Shown here: piece after piece, positions 47,921 to 56,974 of the stretch | Layout: each line of letters opens with the position of its first letter | Numbering within the stretch: position 1 is the stretch's first letter | From: a phage | Reading direction: 5' to 3' (one strand) | NCBI GenBank assembly: GCA_017676145.1 | Contig: GCA_017676145.1_3628.1 | DNA length: 64,000 nucleotides | Program-made: the position numbers and the translations under genes | Notes under the pieces: generated by a model | Told to the model about the DNA's origin: nothing | Seen by the model: the letters and a program-made list of their open reading frames with translations, nothing else | The model's database searches: none

Positions 47921-48923
47921 TCTTAAGCAGACAGGATTATCGAATCCTTATATTCAAAGGTGGTCGCAACACCACCTTCCGCACCTTTACGTGCTGCTGC
48001 ATGTTACCATGCAGAGTAGACTATATCACCACCCATCTCAGGGTGCTTCGCTTTTCGAGCGCCATAAGCTTGCGCCCTACTCCCTCTCGGGATAGTCGTT
48101 GAACTACATTACCAATCGTAATTGTTTGAAATATAGGTGTAAGTCTTACGATCTTTTATTCCTTTAACAACACTAAAACTTACTCCCCACTTCTTAGCTA
48201 TTTTATTTACACACAAAACCCTGTCGCTAAGATCCTCGCAGATACCTATTATCTTGTGCTCACTTATCCTATTAGAGGTTGGCACTTTTCTAAAGTTAAA
48301 CTCTTTAGAAATATCTGGGTATACTGAGCCATTCTTTATACCACTTACAAGTGGTTGATTGACACCAAACATTTCACAAATGTCTTTTACCCTTGCACCT
48401 TGCTCTAACAGCCTACATATTTCAAGAGCAGTGGCATCATCTAGGGACCTGTATCTATTGATATAGTCCTTTTTAAGTCCCATTTCATGAGCGTGATGTG
48501 TGTTTTCCTCAGGCGTTGTCCACTCAAGGTTCCATGCGGCGTTATTCAACTTATTACCATCCAGGTGGTTTACTTGAGTTTTCACGCTGGGATTATCATT
48601 ATCAACAAAAGTCATAGCAATCACTCTGTGGACTAGCACTTGGAACTTTTTACCGCCCTCGCACAAAGTTACCATAGCATAGCCAGTCTTTTTCTGCACA
48701 TTAGGATGGAGGAATTTATTAGAATACAGACTGTAAATTCTTCCATCGTATGTAGCACAATAATGATTGTAACCTAAAAAGCCTAAATTTTTCATTTCAA
48801 ACATCTCCCTACTACAGGTTCGGAAGGGTAATTATAGCTGCTGATTGTCCGTTTAGCAATCGGATTTTCCAGCAATTAACGAAGTTATTCGACGTGCATT
48901 TCTGCACGAAGCCACTATCATTT
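47921..48923 (-). mobile_element. group I intron 2 in terminase large subunit gene, carrying an HNH homing endonuclease ORF; ends approximate
   Basis: Minus-strand core elements P AATTGCTGGAAAA (48866-48878), Q AATCAGCAGC (48837-48846), R GTTCAACGACTA (48083-48094), S GATATAGTC (48019-48027) in canonical order; in-frame stop right after the exon; ORF between Q and R. Confidence 0.75.
48109..48804 (-). CDS. intron-encoded HNH homing endonuclease (231 aa)
   Basis: NHLDGNKLNNAAWNLEWTTPEEN HNH motif; located inside intron 2 between Q and R elements. Confidence 0.8.
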   Translation of the reverse strand: MFEMKNLGFLGYNHYCATYDGRIYSLYSNKFLHPNVQKKTGYAMVTLCEGGKKFQVLVHRVIAMTFVDNDNPSVKTQVNHLDGNKLNNAAWNLEWTTPEENTHHAHEMGLKKDYINRYRSLDDATALEICRLLEQGARVKDICEMFGVNQPLVSGIKNGSVYPDISKEFNFRKVPTSNRISEHKIIGICEDLSDRVLCVNKIAKKWGVSFSVVKGIKDRKTYTYISNNYDW

Positions 48924-49241
48924 AATGGTTGCGCCTATAAACGAGAATGACAACGGTCTTGGCTTAATCTCCACACCTAGTCCGTTAACCGTGGTGTATT
49001 TCTCTATTAACTCCTCTTTAGAGTCTCCCCAGATAAATTCACCGTCGCGCCGGATAAAATATCTTTTCTTACCACATTTCTCCGGATCTGGATACCCTTC
49101 ATCGTCCAACCACCACCTAACCAGTTTGGCAAGCATGTGTTCTGAGTCGGGGTTACAGCTGATAACCATTCTTGATGGATACTTTGACTGAGATCGCAGA
49201 CGAGACATTAGATAGTCTATCTGCTCCCATTCGAATTGCGT
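48924..49241 (-). CDS. terminase large subunit, exon 2; boundaries approximate
   Basis: In-frame segment ...(T)QFEWEQIDYLMSRLRSQ...VISCNPDSEHMLAKL...; bounded upstream by intron 1 and downstream by a stop at the start of intron 2. Confidence 0.6.
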
Positions 49242-49560
49242 CGTTTATGTTCAGGCAAGGTCGCTAGTCTTGCCCCGCCATTTTCAGGCAGCTGCATGTC
49301 TCCATGCAGACCAGACTATATCTTATAAGCTATAACAACAGCTTACCCTCCCGTTTCGAATCGCTTGATTCTACGTCTTTCGACTAGTCGTTGAACGTTC
49401 ATCCTCTCGGATGCTTCGCTGCGGATTATCTAAATCAACACTCTGTTACCATACCTTCGATCTCTCTTCGAAGCCTCTATTATGTTACCATAACAGGTTG
49501 GTGGTGTTAATAATAAAGATTTCCCCGCAATTAGGGAGGTTTTACGAGAGCTACAAATTA
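49242..49560 (-). mobile_element. group I intron 1 in terminase large subunit gene (no ORF)
   Basis: Minus-strand P AATTGCGGGGAA (49521-49532), Q AATCCGCAGC (49418-49427), R GTTCAACGACTA (49385-49396), S GATATAGTC (49316-49324); exon ends GGT followed by TAA, as in T4 td-type introns. Confidence 0.75.
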
Positions 49561-49986
49561 ACCCTCATCGAAGCAAACCATGGTGTACTCAAGCCCTTGA
49601 TGGTTAAGCTTATCTTGGACATACTCCATGTGGCAGTATTTTACAACGGCCCCTTTTTTGCTCCTGTCCCACTTGCCAGTGCTCGGATCAAACCGTGGAA
49701 AAATAAACTTATGATCCTTCTCTCTGAACTTTGGTTTAATGTTTTCAGGCAGATCACTGTAAATAGCTACTGCTTTAGGCCATAGACCTCCTTCACCCTC
49801 CAGCTGCGGGGTTGTTCTTCGGAACATAACCACAGAGCTGTGTGGGTCATCAATAATTTTAAGTGGCATTAGCTGCAAGAGGAACGACTTGCCAGAACCG
49901 GCTGCACCTCCGATCACCAAAATATCTGCATCGTTCTCAAGGATCATCTTCTGCTTTTCAGAACACGGTCCGTAAATCTTAGACAT
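49561..49986 (-). CDS. terminase large subunit, exon 1 (ATPase domain)
   Basis: Walker A GGAAGSGKS and Walker B MVCFDEG; start ATG overlaps the o-spanin stop (TAATG). Confidence 0.75.
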
Positions 49987-51329: not shown

Positions 51330-51335
51330 AAAAAG

Positions 51336-51440
51336 GTGCTAGGTGATGGAATCGAACCACCTATGTATTCAACGACTACCTCGTCTATTTTCAGGATTAA
51401 AAATCCTCGCCCTTGCCAAAGGGCTTACCTAGCGCAATAT
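51336..51440 (-). ncRNA. tRNA-like element, non-canonical (pseudo-tRNA or small stable RNA)
   Basis: Has 7-bp acceptor-like stem GCTAGGT/ACCTAGC, D-like arm GCCC/GGGC and T-arm GGTGG-TTCGATT-CCATC, but no 7-nt anticodon loop and ~30 nt extra between anticodon-like and T arms; CCA not fully encoded. Confidence 0.35.
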
Positions 51441-53327: not shown

Positions 53328-53906
53328 TCAACGTTCGTAGTAAATCTTATTCAACATTACCTCATCGTTTGCAGAAAGGATATCAAGATATGCATCACCA
53401 AATCTGCCTGCAACAACCTCTGCATGATACATCACTTCGTCAACATCGTCAAGAGTGATAACCGGATGACCATATCTTTCTGAATATTGCCTCAGGGTGC
53501 GATGTAACGAGTCGTCATCATATGCAGACTTTTTAATATCACAAACACGACGAATGGCCTTGATGTCGAAAAAACCTGTGCGATACCACCCAAGAAAAAA
53601 GTTCCGTGTGGTGTCAACATCTACATCAATACCATCAAGAACTTTATCTACAAGATAGCTGTCATCCTTTGGACCAGCGTCCTTAGTGCGAATGTAGTTG
53701 CCATCTTTTCCAGGCGATAGCTCCTTCTCATCACCAACCTGCATGCCATCATTTGGCGGTGTTAGCCACTTATCCGGATGCTTACGATCACGAGCGTTAG
53801 AATGATTACGCTGGAAACCTGGCTTCCACTTGAAAGTTTTCTCCATCTGTTCTTCATTCTGATAACGTTTTGCAATCTTTTCGCGGTCATCTTTGCGTGA
53901 ACTCAT
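53328..53906 (-). CDS. hypothetical protein (192 aa)
   Basis: ORF with strong RBS (gaagaggagg) immediately upstream of the ATG; charged, no recognised motif. Confidence 0.5.
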   Translation of the reverse strand: MSSRKDDREKIAKRYQNEEQMEKTFKWKPGFQRNHSNARDRKHPDKWLTPPNDGMQVGDEKELSPGKDGNYIRTKDAGPKDDSYLVDKVLDGIDVDVDTTRNFFLGWYRTGFFDIKAIRRVCDIKKSAYDDDSLHRTLRQYSERYGHPVITLDDVDEVMYHAEVVAGRFGDAYLDILSANDEVMLNKIYYER

Positions 53907-54410
53907 AACTGCCTCCTCTTCAAGTTATAGAAAAACTCACTGTATCGCTTTGTAACGAGCTTTTCTATCAAACTGGTGCGATTGCCTTACTTGGTATAGT
54001 TTACGCAGCTGTGTGGCGATTTAGGGGCCTTCCTGTCCGTTTCCACACATAAACTTTAACTAAACTCGCGCGGGAGGCTCTCAACCGACTCCTTACGGCG
54101 CTGGCAAGCTTTCGTCGGTGGTCCACATTAGTGCTCGGCCTTTGGCCTGCGCTATCGCTTCGCTCCCACACATGTTAACAGTCCTGCATGTATGCACTCC
54201 TGTCATTGTGTGCACTATGGAGGCCCGGCATCTCGCCCCTCGTAGGCGAGTGCCAATGAAGGGCCGACACTACCAATAGTAAGTAATAAATTTAAAACAT
54301 GGTACTTAGGATCTAGTATATTCTACATAAGTTAAGTATATGTACTTTAGTACCATAAGTACTAGATCTTTTATTTTTTATTATTTAGTTATTTTAGTTA
54401 TATTCTTTAT

Positions 54411-54496
54411 GTGTCCGTATTGCGGACAGTTAGTGTCCGTATTACGGGCAGATGTGTCCGCGTGACGGACAGTAGTGTCCGTATCACGGACAGTTA
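54411..54496. repeat. array of four tandem ~21-22 bp repeats, each an imperfect palindrome TGTCCG-N5-CGGACA (iteron/operator-like)
   Basis: GTGTCCGTATTGCGGACAGTTA / GTGTCCGTATTACGGGCAGAT / GTGTCCGCGTGACGGACAGTA / GTGTCCGTATCACGGACAGTTA; roughly two-helical-turn spacing; adjacent to a ~120-bp AT-rich tract (54290-54410). Confidence 0.7.
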
Positions 54497-54567
54497 CTAC
54501 CCTCTGCTCTTGGATGGACATAAAACATACGAATCCTTATAGTGCAGATATTTAAGTTTTCACTGGT

Positions 54568-54918
54568 CTAACCAGTTGTTGACATTCGAATAACCTCTTC
54601 TGGTGGCAAAACTTTGGAAAATGTGCATCTTTTACCTCTCCCTTGTGTGGATATTTCAACCACTCCTGCACATTCTAAAGTTTTAACGCACGCTGCTGCT
54701 TTTGTTTTCTTTATCCCAACATCTGCTGCAATTTTCCTTGTGCTGGGTGTGAAGCGTGAATTTCCTCCAAGCTTATACCAGTTGTGCAGGTAGCAGTATA
54801 CGATCTTGTCATACAAGTCAAGAACAACAACCTCCCCGGTTGTGTCATTCAAAACTTTTGACATAGACAGTATTTCAAGGGGGACTTTAAGATATAGCAG
54901 CTTATCCCCATCTTTCAT
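54568..54918 (-). CDS. small putative DNA-binding protein (HTH-like, 116 aa; assigned from sequence appearance only)
   Basis: Segment STRKIAADVGIKKTKAAACVKTLECAGVV reads as a helix-turn-helix recognition region; gene ends ~70 bp from the repeat array. Confidence 0.45.
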   Translation of the reverse strand: MKDGDKLLYLKVPLEILSMSKVLNDTTGEVVVLDLYDKIVYCYLHNWYKLGGNSRFTPSTRKIAADVGIKKTKAAACVKTLECAGVVEISTQGRGKRCTFSKVLPPEEVIRMSTTG

Positions 54919-54965: not shown

Positions 54966-55520
54966 TTACTCCCCGCTGTCAATAGCAAGACTCATTGCAA
55001 TACGGTATGCCTCTTCTAATGGTAAGAGTCTCCCCCACACATCCCAACCGACATCAAACTGCCTGCCAAACAACTGTTGCGTGGTTCCGTGAGCATGACC
55101 GAACAGTTGGACTGATCCGTGATGCTTTCTGTTCCACGTTGCAAACTGGTAATGACTCATACAGATCAAATTCTTGTTGTGGCGAAACTCGTAATAATCT
55201 ACAACCTCATGATAGAACTCTTTCATAATTCTGACAGTCGTCCTTGTGTCATGGTTGCCACGAACAAGAATAATATGTCCGTTCAACATATTTAGAATAT
55301 CTGGAAGTAAGTTGTTGATATTCTTATCATTAGTGCACGCAATATCCCCCAAGTGGAACACAGTGTCTGCAGGTGACACAACAGAGTTCCACTCGGTGAT
55401 GATTCCAGCATTCATACTGTCAAGATTGTGATCATACTGAGATCTGTGTTTTTGACACGAGTCAAACTCCATGACCCGCTGGTGGAGAAAGTGTGTGTCA
55501 CTTGTTACAAAGTATTTCAT
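54966..55520 (-). CDS. calcineurin-like metallophosphoesterase (phosphatase)
   Basis: Internal start MKYFVTSDTHF preferred over the listed 55625; motifs D-x-H (SDTHF), GD (LGDIA), GNHD, GHAH typical of the metallophosphoesterase fold. Confidence 0.65.
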   Translation of the reverse strand: MKYFVTSDTHFLHQRVMEFDSCQKHRSQYDHNLDSMNAGIITEWNSVVSPADTVFHLGDIACTNDKNINNLLPDILNMLNGHIILVRGNHDTRTTVRIMKEFYHEVVDYYEFRHNKNLICMSHYQFATWNRKHHGSVQLFGHAHGTTQQLFGRQFDVGWDVWGRLLPLEEAYRIAMSLAIDSGE

Positions 55521-55527
55521 ACATTCC

Positions 55528-55938
55528 TCATTTAAGTTTAATGCAGTTTTTAAGCTGGCGTTCCATACGATCCACGACCATGTCTGGAACATCATGAATG
55601 CTTTTATTACCGTGGCGGTTTTCAACCACGATTACGGTATAACTATACCCATGACTGATTGCCATGTCAACATATTCTTGCACATGTTTTTCTTTTGTAA
55701 ACGTATTACTTACCACGATACGGTCGTATCCCATACGCATCATATCTTCTACGTTATCTTTGCACCATTTTGCTGCAAGTGTTACTTTACTTGCATCCCA
55801 GTTGTAATTGCCGTCATCGTCGTACCAGAACATGTCGTTCTCAAAATGTGGATACAGACCTTCTAAAGATAGCGCATTTGCCAGTGTTGATTTGCCAGAC
55901 CCTGGTAGACCACGCACGATATATAGCATTTTAGACAT
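55528..55938 (-). CDS. P-loop polynucleotide 5'-kinase-like protein (T4 Pnk kinase-domain-like)
   Basis: ATG at 55938 with GGAGG RBS preferred over the listed 56094; LPGSGKST Walker A, ENDMF Asp, VVSNTF and VPDMVVDRMERQ blocks parallel T4 Pnk kinase motifs recalled from memory. Confidence 0.6.
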   Translation of the reverse strand: MSKMLYIVRGLPGSGKSTLANALSLEGLYPHFENDMFWYDDDGNYNWDASKVTLAAKWCKDNVEDMMRMGYDRIVVSNTFTKEKHVQEYVDMAISHGYSYTVIVVENRHGNKSIHDVPDMVVDRMERQLKNCIKLK

Positions 55939-55966
55939 AGCGGCCCTCCGTTTTAATTTTAATGAT

Positions 55967-55995
55967 AGTATAGCGTGCTCTTTTGAACATTTCAA
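55967..55995 (-). promoter_or_regulatory. candidate promoter (TTGAAA-17-TATACT) in divergent control region
   Basis: On minus strand TTGAAAtgttcaaaagagcacgcTATACT upstream of the kinase gene; a plus-strand TTGACA (55998-56003) faces the RNA ligase gene. Confidence 0.4.
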
Positions 55996-56038
55996 GTGTT
56001 GACATGATGCTGTTTGTGTGGGAAGATTGTGGAACAAA

Positions 56039-56974
56039 ATGACAAATGAGGAACGTATGATGAAGTATTTTAATGCAGACGACCTAGTTGACAAAGGTCT
56101 TGTAACCAGCAGATATTACCCAGATCTTGGATTAAAGATCTATAAATATGCCAGAAAAGTATTTTACAACAATTTATGGCATTTGTCTCCTCGTTTGCTG
56201 GAGTGCCGGGGAATTGTTGTCGGTAATGAAGGAAATGTTGTGGCATGGCCCTTCACAAAAGTGTTTAACTTGGGAGAAAACTCCACCAACCTGCCTGACA
56301 ATAAGCTTGTGACGGCGGTAGAGAAAAAGAACGGATTCCTTGGTGTGGTATCATCTCATAAAGGTGAACTATTGTTCTCAACAACCGGATCTCTTGATTC
56401 TCCATATTGTAACCTCGCAAAGGAAACCATCCAGGAGCAATGTGGTAATTTAGATCTTATCAAGAAGGTTATGGGCAAAGAAAACATGACATTCATGTTT
56501 GAAATTTGTCACCCTTCAGATCCGCATATTGTTCAGGAAGATCATGGCGCATATTTGATAGGCTGCAGATATAATGATTCTGGAATAATGCTACCAGAAG
56601 CAGCTTTAGATGGGATTGCCAAACACCTTGGTGCAAAACGTCCTCACACTGTGCGTGAAATTCCGTTCAGCTATGCAAAAGAATTAGCTGCAGAAACAAG
56701 AGGTGAAGGGTATATGATTCGTAAGCCTTACTACCCTTATGACCTGCAGCTGAAGATCAAGTCTCCATACTATCTGGCACGGAAGGCCGTAATGAGGGGT
56801 AAGGCTTGGAAGATTTGGGATGATGATATCTTTAAACGTATTGACGAAGAGTTTTACGGCATGGTAAACTTCATTCGTAGCAATTACACAGAGGATGTGT
56901 GGAACTGCCTCCTGGAGCAGGAACGCCGTGAGATACTTGATTGCTATTTCCACAACGAGGACTATATGCAATGA
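56039..56974 (+). CDS. RNA ligase, T4 RnlA (Rnl1)-like
   Basis: Blocks LECRGIVV, KVFNLGENS, motif I VEKKNGF (K-x-N-G), motif IV EGYMIRK, motif V LKIKSPYY align with T4 Rnl1 as recalled; start may be the ATG at 56039 or 56057. Confidence 0.7.
   Translation: MTNEERMMKYFNADDLVDKGLVTSRYYPDLGLKIYKYARKVFYNNLWHLSPRLLECRGIVVGNEGNVVAWPFTKVFNLGENSTNLPDNKLVTAVEKKNGFLGVVSSHKGELLFSTTGSLDSPYCNLAKETIQEQCGNLDLIKKVMGKENMTFMFEICHPSDPHIVQEDHGAYLIGCRYNDSGIMLPEAALDGIAKHLGAKRPHTVREIPFSYAKELAAETRGEGYMIRKPYYPYDLQLKIKSPYYLARKAVMRGKAWKIWDDDIFKRIDEEFYGMVNFIRSNYTEDVWNCLLEQERREILDCYFHNEDYMQ

What the first reader, a model, noticed from the sequence alone, without database searches (positions are those of the whole stretch)
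54000..54290. GC-rich, palindrome-dense non-coding segment upstream of gene 53328..53906
About 290 bp with no ORF in any frame looks much more GC-rich than its surroundings and contains nested inverted repeats (GGCCC...CTCGCC-tacgagg-GGCGAG...GGGCC) and a duplicated CCACACAT motif. It lies between the AT-rich tract and a gene with a strong RBS, suggesting a structured leader RNA, small RNA or a relic of an acquired element.
Basis: seen in the sequence. Interest (0 to 1): 0.45.

Follow-up and report, generated by a model that had tools for sequence, protein, structure and literature searches.

The report
Conserved hairpin element beside phage origin-like repeats
The GC-rich stretch is a real, selectively conserved, non-coding hairpin element. 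It sits beside a replication-origin-like set of repeats in rV5-like E. coli phages, and its core is also carried by small phage-related E. coli plasmids that look like undescribed satellites.

Summary
The window is an rV5-like coliphage (Vequintavirus). Positions 54000-54274 are the most GC-rich 275 bp in the 64 kb (0.56 against 0.44), and the inverted repeats and the CCACACAT duplication are there. Short ORFs do exist, but they show no coding signature.

Only part of the stretch is conserved: core1 (54066-54172) and core2 (54216-54272). These evolve 2-4 times slower than synonymous sites. 54000-54065 drifts at a neutral-like rate.

Both cores are hairpins backed by compensatory changes: 4 of 6 stem pairs in core1 across three lineages, and 2 pairs in core2. 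No Rfam family matches.

The element is not tied to the downstream 192-aa gene. In four independent contexts it lies in the same order and orientation: winged-helix gene, then 3-4 palindromic repeats that co-vary with that gene, then an AT-rich tract, then core1.

Core1 (and core2 in one plasmid) is the strongest DNA match between the phage and ~13-kb E. coli plasmids. These plasmids encode capsid and tail proteins but no annotated terminase or portal.

Best reading (about 0.42): a cis-acting, single-strand-structured part of a lambda-ori-like or plasmid-like origin module. A transcribed structured RNA remains a serious rival. The functional strand is unresolved.

The parts
54568..54918 (-). 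116-aa winged-helix DNA-binding protein gene (rV5 ORF79, annotated 'transcriptional regulator' or 'replication initiation protein')
   Evidence: Pfam HTH_36 and DUF6945 score just below their cut-offs. PHROG 12838/8102/428 'replication initiation protein'. Best solved-structure match is 4RO3, a hypothetical protein (E 1e-6), then the CodY winged helix; RepA_N only reaches E about 1. In L003 the gene is replaced by a 27%-identical 143-aa homolog, together with different repeats.
54411..54496 (.). Four 21-22-bp repeats, each a palindrome TGTCCGyrTnrCGGrCA; iteron- or operator-like sites
   Evidence: the repeat finder family D1 with spacing 22, 21, 21. Diversity pi is 0.015 within the genus. Two phages have 3 copies. 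L003 and L054 carry different palindromic repeats next to different winged-helix genes.
54273..54410 (.). AT-rich tract (GC 0.20) with large imperfect inverted repeats; possible DNA-unwinding element
   Evidence: Inverted repeats I2 and I13. The only exact match in the 64 kb to the oriC 13-mer consensus GATCTnTTnTTTT is at 54365-54377 (weak evidence). L003, L054 and plasmid L028 have analogous AT- or pyrimidine-rich tracts in a comparable position.
54216..54272 (.). core2: long interrupted GC-rich hairpin (15 pairs, 7-nt loop, 6-nt asymmetric internal loop)
   Evidence: Nearly invariant in 20 phage loci and 91% identical in L003. Plasmid L028 matches at 87% with 2 compensatory pairs and 100% of cells paired.
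54173..54215 (.). Variable linker hairpin
   Evidence: pi 0.055. rV5 carries an 18-nt deletion here. Identity to L003 is 72%.
54066..54172 (.). core1: the conserved module. A 6-bp stem (54084-54089 / 54114-54119) encloses a 24-nt loop TCCTT(A/C)CGGCGCTGGCAAGCTTTC that is invariant in the phages and plasmids apart from that one polymorphic position. It is flanked by GCGCGGGAG on the 5' side and CTCCCACACA on the 3' side.
   Evidence: pi 0.027; 92.5% identical in L003. 84% match in five 13-kb plasmids. The covariance model finds one copy per genome, plus a divergent copy in L054. 4 of 6 stem pairs show compensatory changes.
54000..54065 (.). Poorly conserved 5' part of the flagged segment, holding the first CCACACAT copy
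   Evidence: pi 0.098; 65% identity to L003, close to the third-codon-position level.
53907..53999 (-). Conserved spacer carrying the RBS of the 192-aa gene
   Evidence: pi 0.033; 89% identical in L003. The AGGAGG RBS is visible.
53328..53906 (-). 192-aa gene of unknown function (rV5 ORF77, PHROG 12226); a neighbour, not a functional partner of the element

Best explanation
The conserved part of the GC-rich segment is core1 (54066-54172) and core2 (54216-54272). I read it as a non-coding, hairpin-forming, cis-acting element at one edge of a replication-origin-like module.

The module reads, along the - strand: a small winged-helix DNA-binding protein gene, then four dyad-symmetric repeats spaced two helical turns apart (its likely binding sites), then a 140-bp AT-rich tract, then the GC-rich hairpins.

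Proposed mechanism (inferred, not shown): the protein binds the repeats, the AT tract melts, and the hairpins fold once the DNA is single-stranded, or in a short origin-proximal transcript. The core1 loop, conserved in sequence, would then be recognised by a replication factor such as the phage's T7-gp4-like primase-helicase or a host priming factor.

The ~13-kb satellite-like plasmids carry their own initiator-like gene and their own repeats, but the same core1. This fits core1 being the part read by a shared trans-acting factor.

Shown: conservation, base pairing, non-coding status, the recurring architecture, the co-variation of repeats with the protein, and the sharing with plasmids. Inferred: the origin function, the single-stranded mode of action, and the identity of the trans factor.
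For: 1. Purifying selection. pi is 0.027 (core1) and 0.037 (core2), against 0.11 and 0.064 at third codon positions of the flanking genes. Identity to the divergent contig L003 is 92.5% and 91%, against 64% at third positions.

2. Base pairing. The core1 stem is ACCGAC/GTCGGT in the phages, GCTGCC/GGCAGC in the plasmids and GACGGC/GCCGTC in L054. 4 of 6 pairs change on both sides, and one pair shows three different Watson-Crick types. In the phage-plasmid comparison the 24-nt loop differs at only one polymorphic position. core2 has 2 compensatory pairs. Every stem substitution between the reference phage and the plasmid lies in a compensated pair.

3. Architecture. In four contexts core1 lies 200-750 nt from 3-4 or more direct repeats, in the same relative orientation. 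The contexts are the window type, L003, L054 and the plasmids. In the three phage contexts an AT- or pyrimidine-rich tract lies between them.

4. Co-variation of protein and repeats. The repeats and the adjacent winged-helix gene change together while core1 stays the same: 116 aa, then 143 aa at 27% identity, then 224 aa with only weak winged-helix similarity. The iterons also differ among plasmids whose Rep-like proteins differ. From my own knowledge, lambdoid O/iteron modules and iteron plasmids show the same pattern.

5. Initiator-like hits. The 116-aa, 143-aa and plasmid 303-aa proteins hit PHROG 'replication initiation protein' families.

6. Plasmid sharing. Core1 and core2 are the top DNA matches between the plasmids and a whole Vequintavirus genome; shared proteins are only about 50% identical.

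7. Hairpin style. The plasmid modules are full of short perfect hairpins with 3-nt loops. Four of 8 are G-N-A loops on the + strand and none on the - strand. From my own knowledge, this style is typical of ssDNA hairpins.

8. Open question in the literature. The rV5 genome paper could not locate an origin; its skew changes all tracked changes in transcription direction (PMC3606486).
Against: No experiment or transcript data were available.

The 'initiator' label is weak. Pfam hits fall just below their cut-offs, and RepA_N in the PDB only reaches E about 1. The protein is only 116 aa, with no room for a helicase-recruiting domain, and it could be an ordinary repressor whose palindromes are operators.

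No DnaA boxes lie nearby. The oriC-like 13-mer is a single match. GC skew cannot be separated from transcription direction.

The same stems form in RNA, and the region is probably transcribed on the - strand as part of an operon. Strand evidence conflicts. G.U/G.T pairs favour the + strand in one helix. They favour the - strand for the terminal pair of the main stem and for a possible closing helix UGUGUGGGAG/CUCCCGCGCG.

Covariation rests on three lineages only.

In the plasmids the Rep-like gene sits on the other side of the element than in the phage.
Confidence: 0.42

Rival explanations
1. The cores act as RNA. Either they form a discrete non-coding RNA, or they are a cis-acting structured segment of the long - strand transcript that runs from the winged-helix gene into the 192-aa gene and the tRNA cluster. 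Possible roles are a processing or stability element, processive antitermination, or an RBS-mimicking or anti-RBS loop. The plasmids would carry the same RNA module for the same reason.
For: Hairpins with covarying stems and a loop conserved in sequence are typical of functional RNA. Both flanking genes are on the - strand and no terminator was predicted between them. The rV5 record annotates a promoter upstream of ORF79 and none inside the gap. The - strand fold is better defined: z = -2.3 to -2.85, with MFE close to the centroid. It closes core1 with a 10-bp helix that uses three G.U pairs, which is impossible on the + strand. A G-to-A change in GGGAG is compensated in L003 (GGAAGA/TCTTCC). 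The core1 loop carries UAAGGAG on the - strand, which is CUCCUUA (anti-Shine-Dalgarno-like) on the + strand.
Against: No Rfam family matches, even at E <= 10. No conserved promoter or terminator delimits an RNA: the extended -10 at 53992-54000 is mutated in several relatives. In the plasmids a near-consensus sigma-70 promoter match lies downstream of the element, so it is not the leader of the next operon. The many 3-nt loops are unusual for RNA. This reading does not explain why the element always accompanies repeats plus an AT tract rather than any particular gene.
Confidence: 0.32
2. core1 (with or without core2) is the packaging recognition (pac) site read by the phage terminase. The plasmids copy it so that the helper packages them.
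For: Satellites that lack their own terminase must carry the helper's packaging signal (own knowledge: P4/P2 cos). No terminase or portal is annotated on the plasmids, and core1 is the strongest shared DNA. One paper infers headful (pac) packaging for a Vequintavirus using PhageTerm (PMC13211470). The terminase large-subunit gene lies 4-6 kb away on the same strand.
Against: pac sites are read as double-stranded DNA by small terminase (own knowledge), so covarying stems around a fixed loop are not expected. The element is not in or beside a terminase gene. Its constant partner is the repeat/AT module.
Confidence: 0.1
3. It is a 5' leader or riboswitch that controls the 192-aa gene 53328..53906.
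For: It lies upstream of that gene on the coding strand, and the spacer carrying the RBS is conserved.
Against: The gene's 50%-identical homolog in L054 has a 60-nt upstream gap and no element, and core1 there precedes an HNH gene 5.5 kb away. The plasmids have core1 but no homolog of the gene. 54000-54065, which lies between the cores and the gene, evolves at a neutral-like rate.
Confidence: 0.05
4. It encodes small proteins: ORF78 (56 aa, - strand) as annotated in rV5, or the 53-aa + strand ORF 54118..54279.
For: These ORFs exist and are annotated in several records. Most indels inside the + strand ORF are multiples of three.
Against: Neither frame shows a third-position excess of variation: 0.048/0.073/0.043 and 0.030/0.066/0.054. 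1-nt indels occur in L014, L016 and L018. The Mangalyan record annotates two shorter ORFs where others annotate ORF78. The 24-nt loop shows no synonymous variation between phage and plasmid, while the flanking stem changes would be non-synonymous yet keep the pairing. No conserved protein emerges in the plasmids.
Confidence: 0.03

Closest known systems
ori-lambda-type origins of lambdoid phages and iteron origins of plasmids (own knowledge)
   Same: Four direct repeats with internal dyad symmetry at roughly two-turn spacing, an adjacent AT-rich region, then a palindromic GC-richer segment. The DNA-binding protein and its repeats swap together between relatives while the rest of the region stays constant.
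   Different: The repeats lie downstream of the protein gene rather than inside it. The protein is only 116 aa and its initiator identity is weak. No DnaA boxes were found. The conserved hairpin with a 24-nt conserved loop has no described counterpart. No functional proof exists.
Single-strand initiation / single-strand origin signals: G4-type and phiX-type ssi, RSF1010 ssiA/ssiB, sso of rolling-circle plasmids (own knowledge)
   Same: Non-coding, orientation-constant, hairpin-rich segments next to an origin. Stems covary and unpaired bases are conserved. They are read by a priming enzyme on single-stranded DNA.
   Different: Searches of phage, plasmid and E. coli collections matched nothing beyond Vequintavirus and the 13-kb plasmids. 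No library of known ssi or sso sequences was available to test directly. Priming is untested, and the strand is unresolved.
Cis signals shared by helper phages and their satellites, e.g. P2/P4 cos (own knowledge)
   Same: A short non-coding sequence is far better conserved between a large virulent phage and small elements with partial structural gene sets than any shared gene.
   Different: Here the shared piece is a structured hairpin beside origin-like repeats, not a known packaging site. The satellite nature of the plasmids is itself only inferred from gene content.
Pseudo-ToxI locus of Pectobacterium phage phiTE, a Vequintavirinae relative (own knowledge)
   Same: A non-coding locus in an rV5-related phage.
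   Different: Pseudo-ToxI is a tandem 36-nt repeat that mimics an antitoxin RNA. No such tandem repeat is present here.

Membership tests
Any Rfam RNA family | Covariance-model match at or near the gathering score | tested here: not met
   There is no hit in 53850-54600 at gathering thresholds. At E <= 10 only chance-level hits appear (rli43, 21 bits against a gathering score of 100). The plasmid copies also give no hits.
Iteron-type / ori-lambda-type replication origin | Three or more direct repeats in helical phase | tested here: met
   Four copies, start-to-start spacing 22, 21, 21 bp, each with a dyad. Some relatives have three.
Iteron-type / ori-lambda-type replication origin | Adjacent AT-rich unwinding region | tested here: met
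   54273-54410 has GC 0.20. It holds one exact oriC-type 13-mer. Analogous tracts occur in L003 and L054.
Iteron-type / ori-lambda-type replication origin | A cognate initiator protein encoded nearby that co-varies with the repeats | tested here: inconclusive
   Co-variation of the winged-helix gene with the repeats is seen in L003 and L054. Whether the protein is an initiator is uncertain: PHROG 'replication initiation protein' at E about 1e-6, Pfam HTH_36 just below its cut-off, PDB RepA_N at E about 1.
Iteron-type / ori-lambda-type replication origin | DnaA boxes or other host-factor sites | tested here: not met
   No TTWTNCACA match lies within 7 kb of the region.
Iteron-type / ori-lambda-type replication origin | Replication actually starts there | not testable with these tools
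   This needs marker-frequency, 2-D gel or cloning assays. Skew analysis is confounded by transcription direction.
Single-strand initiation (ssi/sso) signal | Hairpins with covarying stems and conserved unpaired bases, in a fixed orientation relative to the origin | tested here: met
   The orientation relative to the repeats is the same in all four contexts.
Single-strand initiation (ssi/sso) signal | Primer synthesis on the folded single strand | not testable with these tools
   Biochemical assay needed.
Intrinsic terminator | GC-rich hairpin immediately followed by a T/U run | tested here: not met
   The scan predicts no terminator in 54000-54300 on either strand. core2 is followed by GACACTACC on the + strand and by UCCAUAG on the - strand.
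5' leader / riboswitch of the 192-aa gene | Co-occurrence with the regulated gene across relatives | tested here: not met
   The gene occurs without the element, and the element occurs beside another gene, in L054. The plasmids have the element without the gene.
Protein-coding gene (rV5 ORF78) | Excess variation at third codon positions and a preserved reading frame | tested here: not met
   pi by codon position is 0.048/0.073/0.043. L018 has a 1-nt deletion. The Mangalyan record annotates two shorter ORFs here.
Phage satellite (for the 13-kb plasmids) | A partial structural gene set related to a helper, with no packaging or replication machinery of a full phage | tested here: met
   The plasmids encode a major head protein, a tape measure protein, a Neck1-like protein and a tail protein. 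Three of these are homologs of window proteins (two at 48-54% aa identity; the tape measure match is weaker). No terminase, portal, sheath or polymerase appears among the 15 annotated genes.
Phage satellite (for the 13-kb plasmids) | Helper-dependent amplification and packaging | not testable with these tools
   Infection experiments are needed. Literature searches turned up no description of Vequintavirus satellites.

The most novel reading that the evidence does not exclude
core1 is a replication-start or priming signal specific to rV5-like phages. A previously unrecognised family of plasmid-borne satellites has copied it in order to hijack the helper's replisome. This would give the first defined origin element of Vequintavirus and the first satellites known for this widely used group of therapeutic and biocontrol phages.
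Probability: 0.22. Interest if true: 0.75.

Novelty: new variant of a known kind. Interest (0 to 1): 0.55.

Why it matters
rV5-like phages are common in phage-therapy and food-safety collections, yet their origin of replication has never been located; the 2013 genome paper tried skew analysis without success. This module is a concrete candidate that a few cloning and marker-frequency experiments could test.

The same analysis exposes small E. coli plasmids with capsid and tail genes that share this one non-coding element with the phages. If they are satellites, they could lower phage yield or spread genes during therapy. The shared hairpin would then be the handle by which they exploit the helper.

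If the element instead works as RNA, it would be a new structured RNA class shared by a phage and its parasites.

Tried and rejected
1. Rfam at gathering thresholds and at E <= 10, and ARAGORN: nothing in the region.

2. Exact-pattern scans of public collections. IMG/VR gave only one related contig. The metagenome scan gave four near-identical phage contigs and one chance hit. The GTDB genome scan gave 19 hits, all chance matches in unrelated, mostly environmental genomes with no hairpin context.

3. Sigma-70 promoter and terminator scans gave no conserved signal delimiting a transcript. The extended -10 at 53992-54000 is mutated in several relatives.

4. DnaA boxes: none nearby. The oriC-type 13-mer is one exact match only and is not enriched when one mismatch is allowed.

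5. CCACACA as a replication-polar motif. In plasmid L028 the orientation switches at the iterons, and the window hinted at the same. The full FV3 genome shows no such polarity (28 + / 26 -, interleaved), so I dropped this as evidence for an origin.

6. A closing helix for core1 on the - strand appears in single-sequence folds of all three lineages, but the consensus fold does not recover it. The strand is therefore left unresolved.

7. Other Vequintavirinae genera (Henunavirus and a Klebsiella phage) lack the module at the syntenic place, so they add no covariation data.

8. Structure prediction of the 116-aa protein was not run, because the available alignment was too shallow.

Full report
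**What the window is.** The 660 bp around the finding match 119 phage records at 88-99% identity. All of them are rV5-like coliphages of the genus Vequintavirus; the closest are EPFV3-03/2025, SYGMH1 and FV3. The flagged segment lies in a 660-bp gene-free gap. On one side is a 192-aa gene of unknown function (53328..53906, - strand, rV5 ORF77). On the other is a 116-aa winged-helix gene (54568..54918, - strand, rV5 ORF79).

**Checking the observation.**
- GC content of 54000-54274 is 0.564, against 0.442 for the window. It is the most GC-rich 275-bp stretch in the 64 kb.
- The nested inverted repeat and the duplicated CCACACAT are present.
- 'No ORF in any frame' is not right. Four ORFs of 33-56 aa overlap the region, and one is annotated as ORF78 in rV5 and other records.
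- Single-sequence folding is only modestly better than shuffles. The - strand gives z = -2.3 to -2.85; the + strand gives z = -1.2 to -1.5.

**What is conserved.** I aligned 19 Vequintavirus loci plus a divergent 137-kb IMG/VR contig, L003.
- The segment is a mosaic. core1 (54066-54172) and core2 (54216-54272) are almost invariant.
- Nucleotide diversity is 0.027 and 0.037 in the cores, against 0.11 and 0.064 at third codon positions of the two flanking genes.
- Identity to L003 is 92.5% and 91% in the cores, against 64% at third positions.
- 54000-54065 (with the first CCACACAT copy) and 54173-54215 drift at near-neutral rates. They carry indels of 1, 3 and 18 nt.
- Neither ORF78 nor the + strand ORF shows a third-position excess of variation. 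The segment is therefore non-coding and under selection. It is not a decaying relic.

**No known family.** Rfam gives nothing at its gathering thresholds and only chance-level hits at E <= 10. ARAGORN finds tRNAs only in the cluster 2 kb away.

**The unexpected relatives.** A sensitive search of E. coli genomes and plasmids found core1 at 83-84% identity in five circular 'plasmids' of 13.2-13.7 kb; one assembly holds three tandem copies (39.6 kb). core2 is present at 87% in one of them, NZ_CP020521.1.
- These plasmids encode a major head protein, a tape measure protein, a Neck1-like protein and a tail protein. Three of these are homologs of proteins in this window (two at 48-54% aa identity; the tape measure match is weaker).
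- They also carry helix-turn-helix and Rep-like proteins and their own iterons.
- No terminase, portal, sheath or polymerase is annotated.
- They look like satellites of rV5-like phages. I found no paper describing such elements.
- Against a complete Vequintavirus genome (FV3), core1 and core2 are the strongest nucleotide matches of the plasmids.

**Base pairing.**
- core1 is a hairpin. The 6-bp stem is ACCGAC/GTCGGT in the phages and GCTGCC/GGCAGC in the plasmids. Three pairs are changed on both sides.
- The 24-nt loop TCCTT(A/C)CGGCGCTGGCAAGCTTTC differs only at one polymorphic position.
- core2 keeps all 15 pairs, with two compensatory changes.
- A covariance model of core1 finds exactly one copy per phage or plasmid unit and none in two other Vequintavirinae genera.
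- The model also found a diverged copy (29.8 bits, E about 1e-6) in a 24.5-kb assembly contig that I reached through a 50%-identical homolog of the 192-aa protein.
- There the stem is GACGGC/GCCGTC. In total 4 of 6 pairs now show compensatory change, and one pair shows three Watson-Crick types.
- Conserved between lineages are the loop ends (TCCT..CGGC, TTTC), a CCACAT after the stem, and the terminal CTCCCACACA.

**What the element travels with.** In that distant contig (L054) the 192-aa homolog sits in a tight operon with a 60-nt upstream gap. The core1 copy is 5.5 kb away, in a 1-kb gene-free gap in front of an HNH gene. The element is therefore not a leader of the 192-aa gene.

What recurs is the neighbourhood. 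In the window it reads: winged-helix gene, then four palindromic 21-22-bp repeats (54411-54496), then a 140-bp tract of 20% GC, then the cores.
- In L003 the cores are kept. The winged-helix gene is replaced by a 27%-identical 143-aa homolog, the repeats by unrelated ATGCATCAGAT-type repeats, and the AT tract by a pyrimidine-rich tract.
- In L054 a 224-aa gene with only weak winged-helix similarity is followed by four GGGCCATTATTTGGCCC palindromes, an AT-rich inverted repeat and core1.
- In the plasmids core1 lies 200-750 nt from iterons that differ between plasmids, as do their Rep-like proteins.
- The orientation of core1 relative to the repeats is the same in all four contexts.
- The 116-aa, 143-aa and plasmid 303-aa proteins hit PHROG 'replication initiation protein' families through their winged-helix part.
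- Pfam hits are just below their cut-offs and PDB similarity to RepA_N is negligible, so the initiator label stays tentative.

**Interpretation.** The layout is a DNA-binding protein whose gene swaps together with dyad-symmetric repeats, an adjacent AT-rich tract, then a palindromic GC-rich piece. From my own knowledge, this is the layout of ori-lambda and of iteron plasmids. IncQ-type origins add hairpin priming signals next to such repeats.

I therefore read the cores as the constant, structure-dependent part of an origin-like module. They would be recognised by a factor common to the phages and the plasmids. The rV5 paper describes the phage's helicase-primase as gp4-like, which makes it a candidate, as does a host priming factor.

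The plasmid modules are dense in short perfect hairpins with 3-nt loops. Half of these are G-N-A loops on one strand only, which fits single-stranded DNA better than RNA. The rV5 genome paper states that skew analysis could not separate an origin from changes in transcription direction. The origin of these phages is still an open question.

**Limits and rivals.**
- Everything about function is inference.
- The same stems form in RNA, and the gap is probably transcribed on the - strand. On that strand core1 can close with a G.U-containing helix (UGUGUGGGAG/CUCCCGCGCG) in all three lineages, although the consensus fold does not recover it. Other wobble pairs favour the + strand. I leave the strand unresolved and rate a functional RNA at about one third.
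- A pac site shared by helper and satellite is possible, but it does not explain the covarying stems.
- The palindromes could be operators of an ordinary repressor.
- Covariation rests on three lineages.

**Verdict.** The 'leader of the downstream gene' reading is wrong. The 'structured' reading is right. The segment belongs to a larger, previously unrecognised origin-like module, and its core hairpin is shared with satellite-like plasmids.

Noticed in passing
L028 = NZ_CP020521.1 (whole 13,689-bp plasmid); also NZ_CP043822.1, NZ_CP178698.1, NZ_CP035869.1, CP148565.1, CP134895.1: A family of ~13-kb non-mobilizable E. coli plasmids. They encode a major head protein, a tape measure protein, a Neck1-like protein and a tail protein with homologs in rV5-like phages, plus Rep-like genes and iterons. 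No terminase or portal is annotated. They look like undescribed plasmid-borne satellites of Vequintavirus, and one assembly is a trimer.
   Followed up: partly
window 47945-48924 and 49242-49561: Compared with FV3, the terminase large-subunit gene carries two insertions. One is ~980 bp and holds a 231-aa HNH_3 endonuclease ORF (48109..48804, - strand). The other is ~320 bp and matches the Rfam group I intron model (49292-49570, 85 bits).
   Followed up: partly
window 54411-54496: Four palindromic 21-22-bp repeats TGTCCGTATnnCGGACA lie just downstream of the winged-helix gene. Two related phages (V18 and EdH4) have lost one copy.
   Followed up: yes
window-wide; L028; FV3 genome (L055-L057): The heptamer CCACACA is over-represented: 26 against 11.5 expected in the window, and 17 against 1.55 in the plasmid, mostly in the plasmid's non-coding DNA and often as inverted pairs. 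In the plasmids it ends each hairpin module. Its orientation flips at the plasmid iterons, but it shows no genome-wide polarity in FV3. Its meaning is unknown.
   Followed up: partly
window 54365-54377: GATCTTTTATTTT is the only exact match in the 64 kb to the E. coli oriC 13-mer consensus GATCTnTTnTTTT, and it lies inside the AT-rich tract. As a single match it is weak evidence.
   Followed up: yes
window 51335-51433 (- strand): A 99-nt tRNA-like gene in the tRNA cluster. ARAGORN calls it with a 4-base anticodon, and the BASEL record annotates it as tRNA-Lys. It may be an intron-containing or unusual tRNA.
   Followed up: no
FV3 104,328-106,594 (L057 4328-6594; outside the window): A second gene-free gap of 2.3 kb where two transcription units converge. 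It holds four CCACACA copies on the same strand and a 24-nt, 96% match to the plasmid's non-coding region (L028 519-542).
   Followed up: partly
window 54966-56974: An RNA-repair-like cluster lies next to the module and 3 kb from the tRNA cluster. It comprises a metallophosphoesterase, a polynucleotide-kinase-like P-loop protein and a T4 Rnl1-type RNA ligase.
   Followed up: no
GenBank MG0656xx records: Eighteen records named 'Campylobacter phage' are more than 90% identical to this E. coli rV5-like phage across the region. This probably reflects mislabelled hosts or contaminating coliphages.
   Followed up: no
window 54158-54164 (- strand GCGAAGC): The - strand of core1 contains GCGAAGC. From my own knowledge, this matches the sequence of an unusually stable DNA mini-hairpin reported in ssDNA phage origins. 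It is changed in L003 and L006.
   Followed up: no
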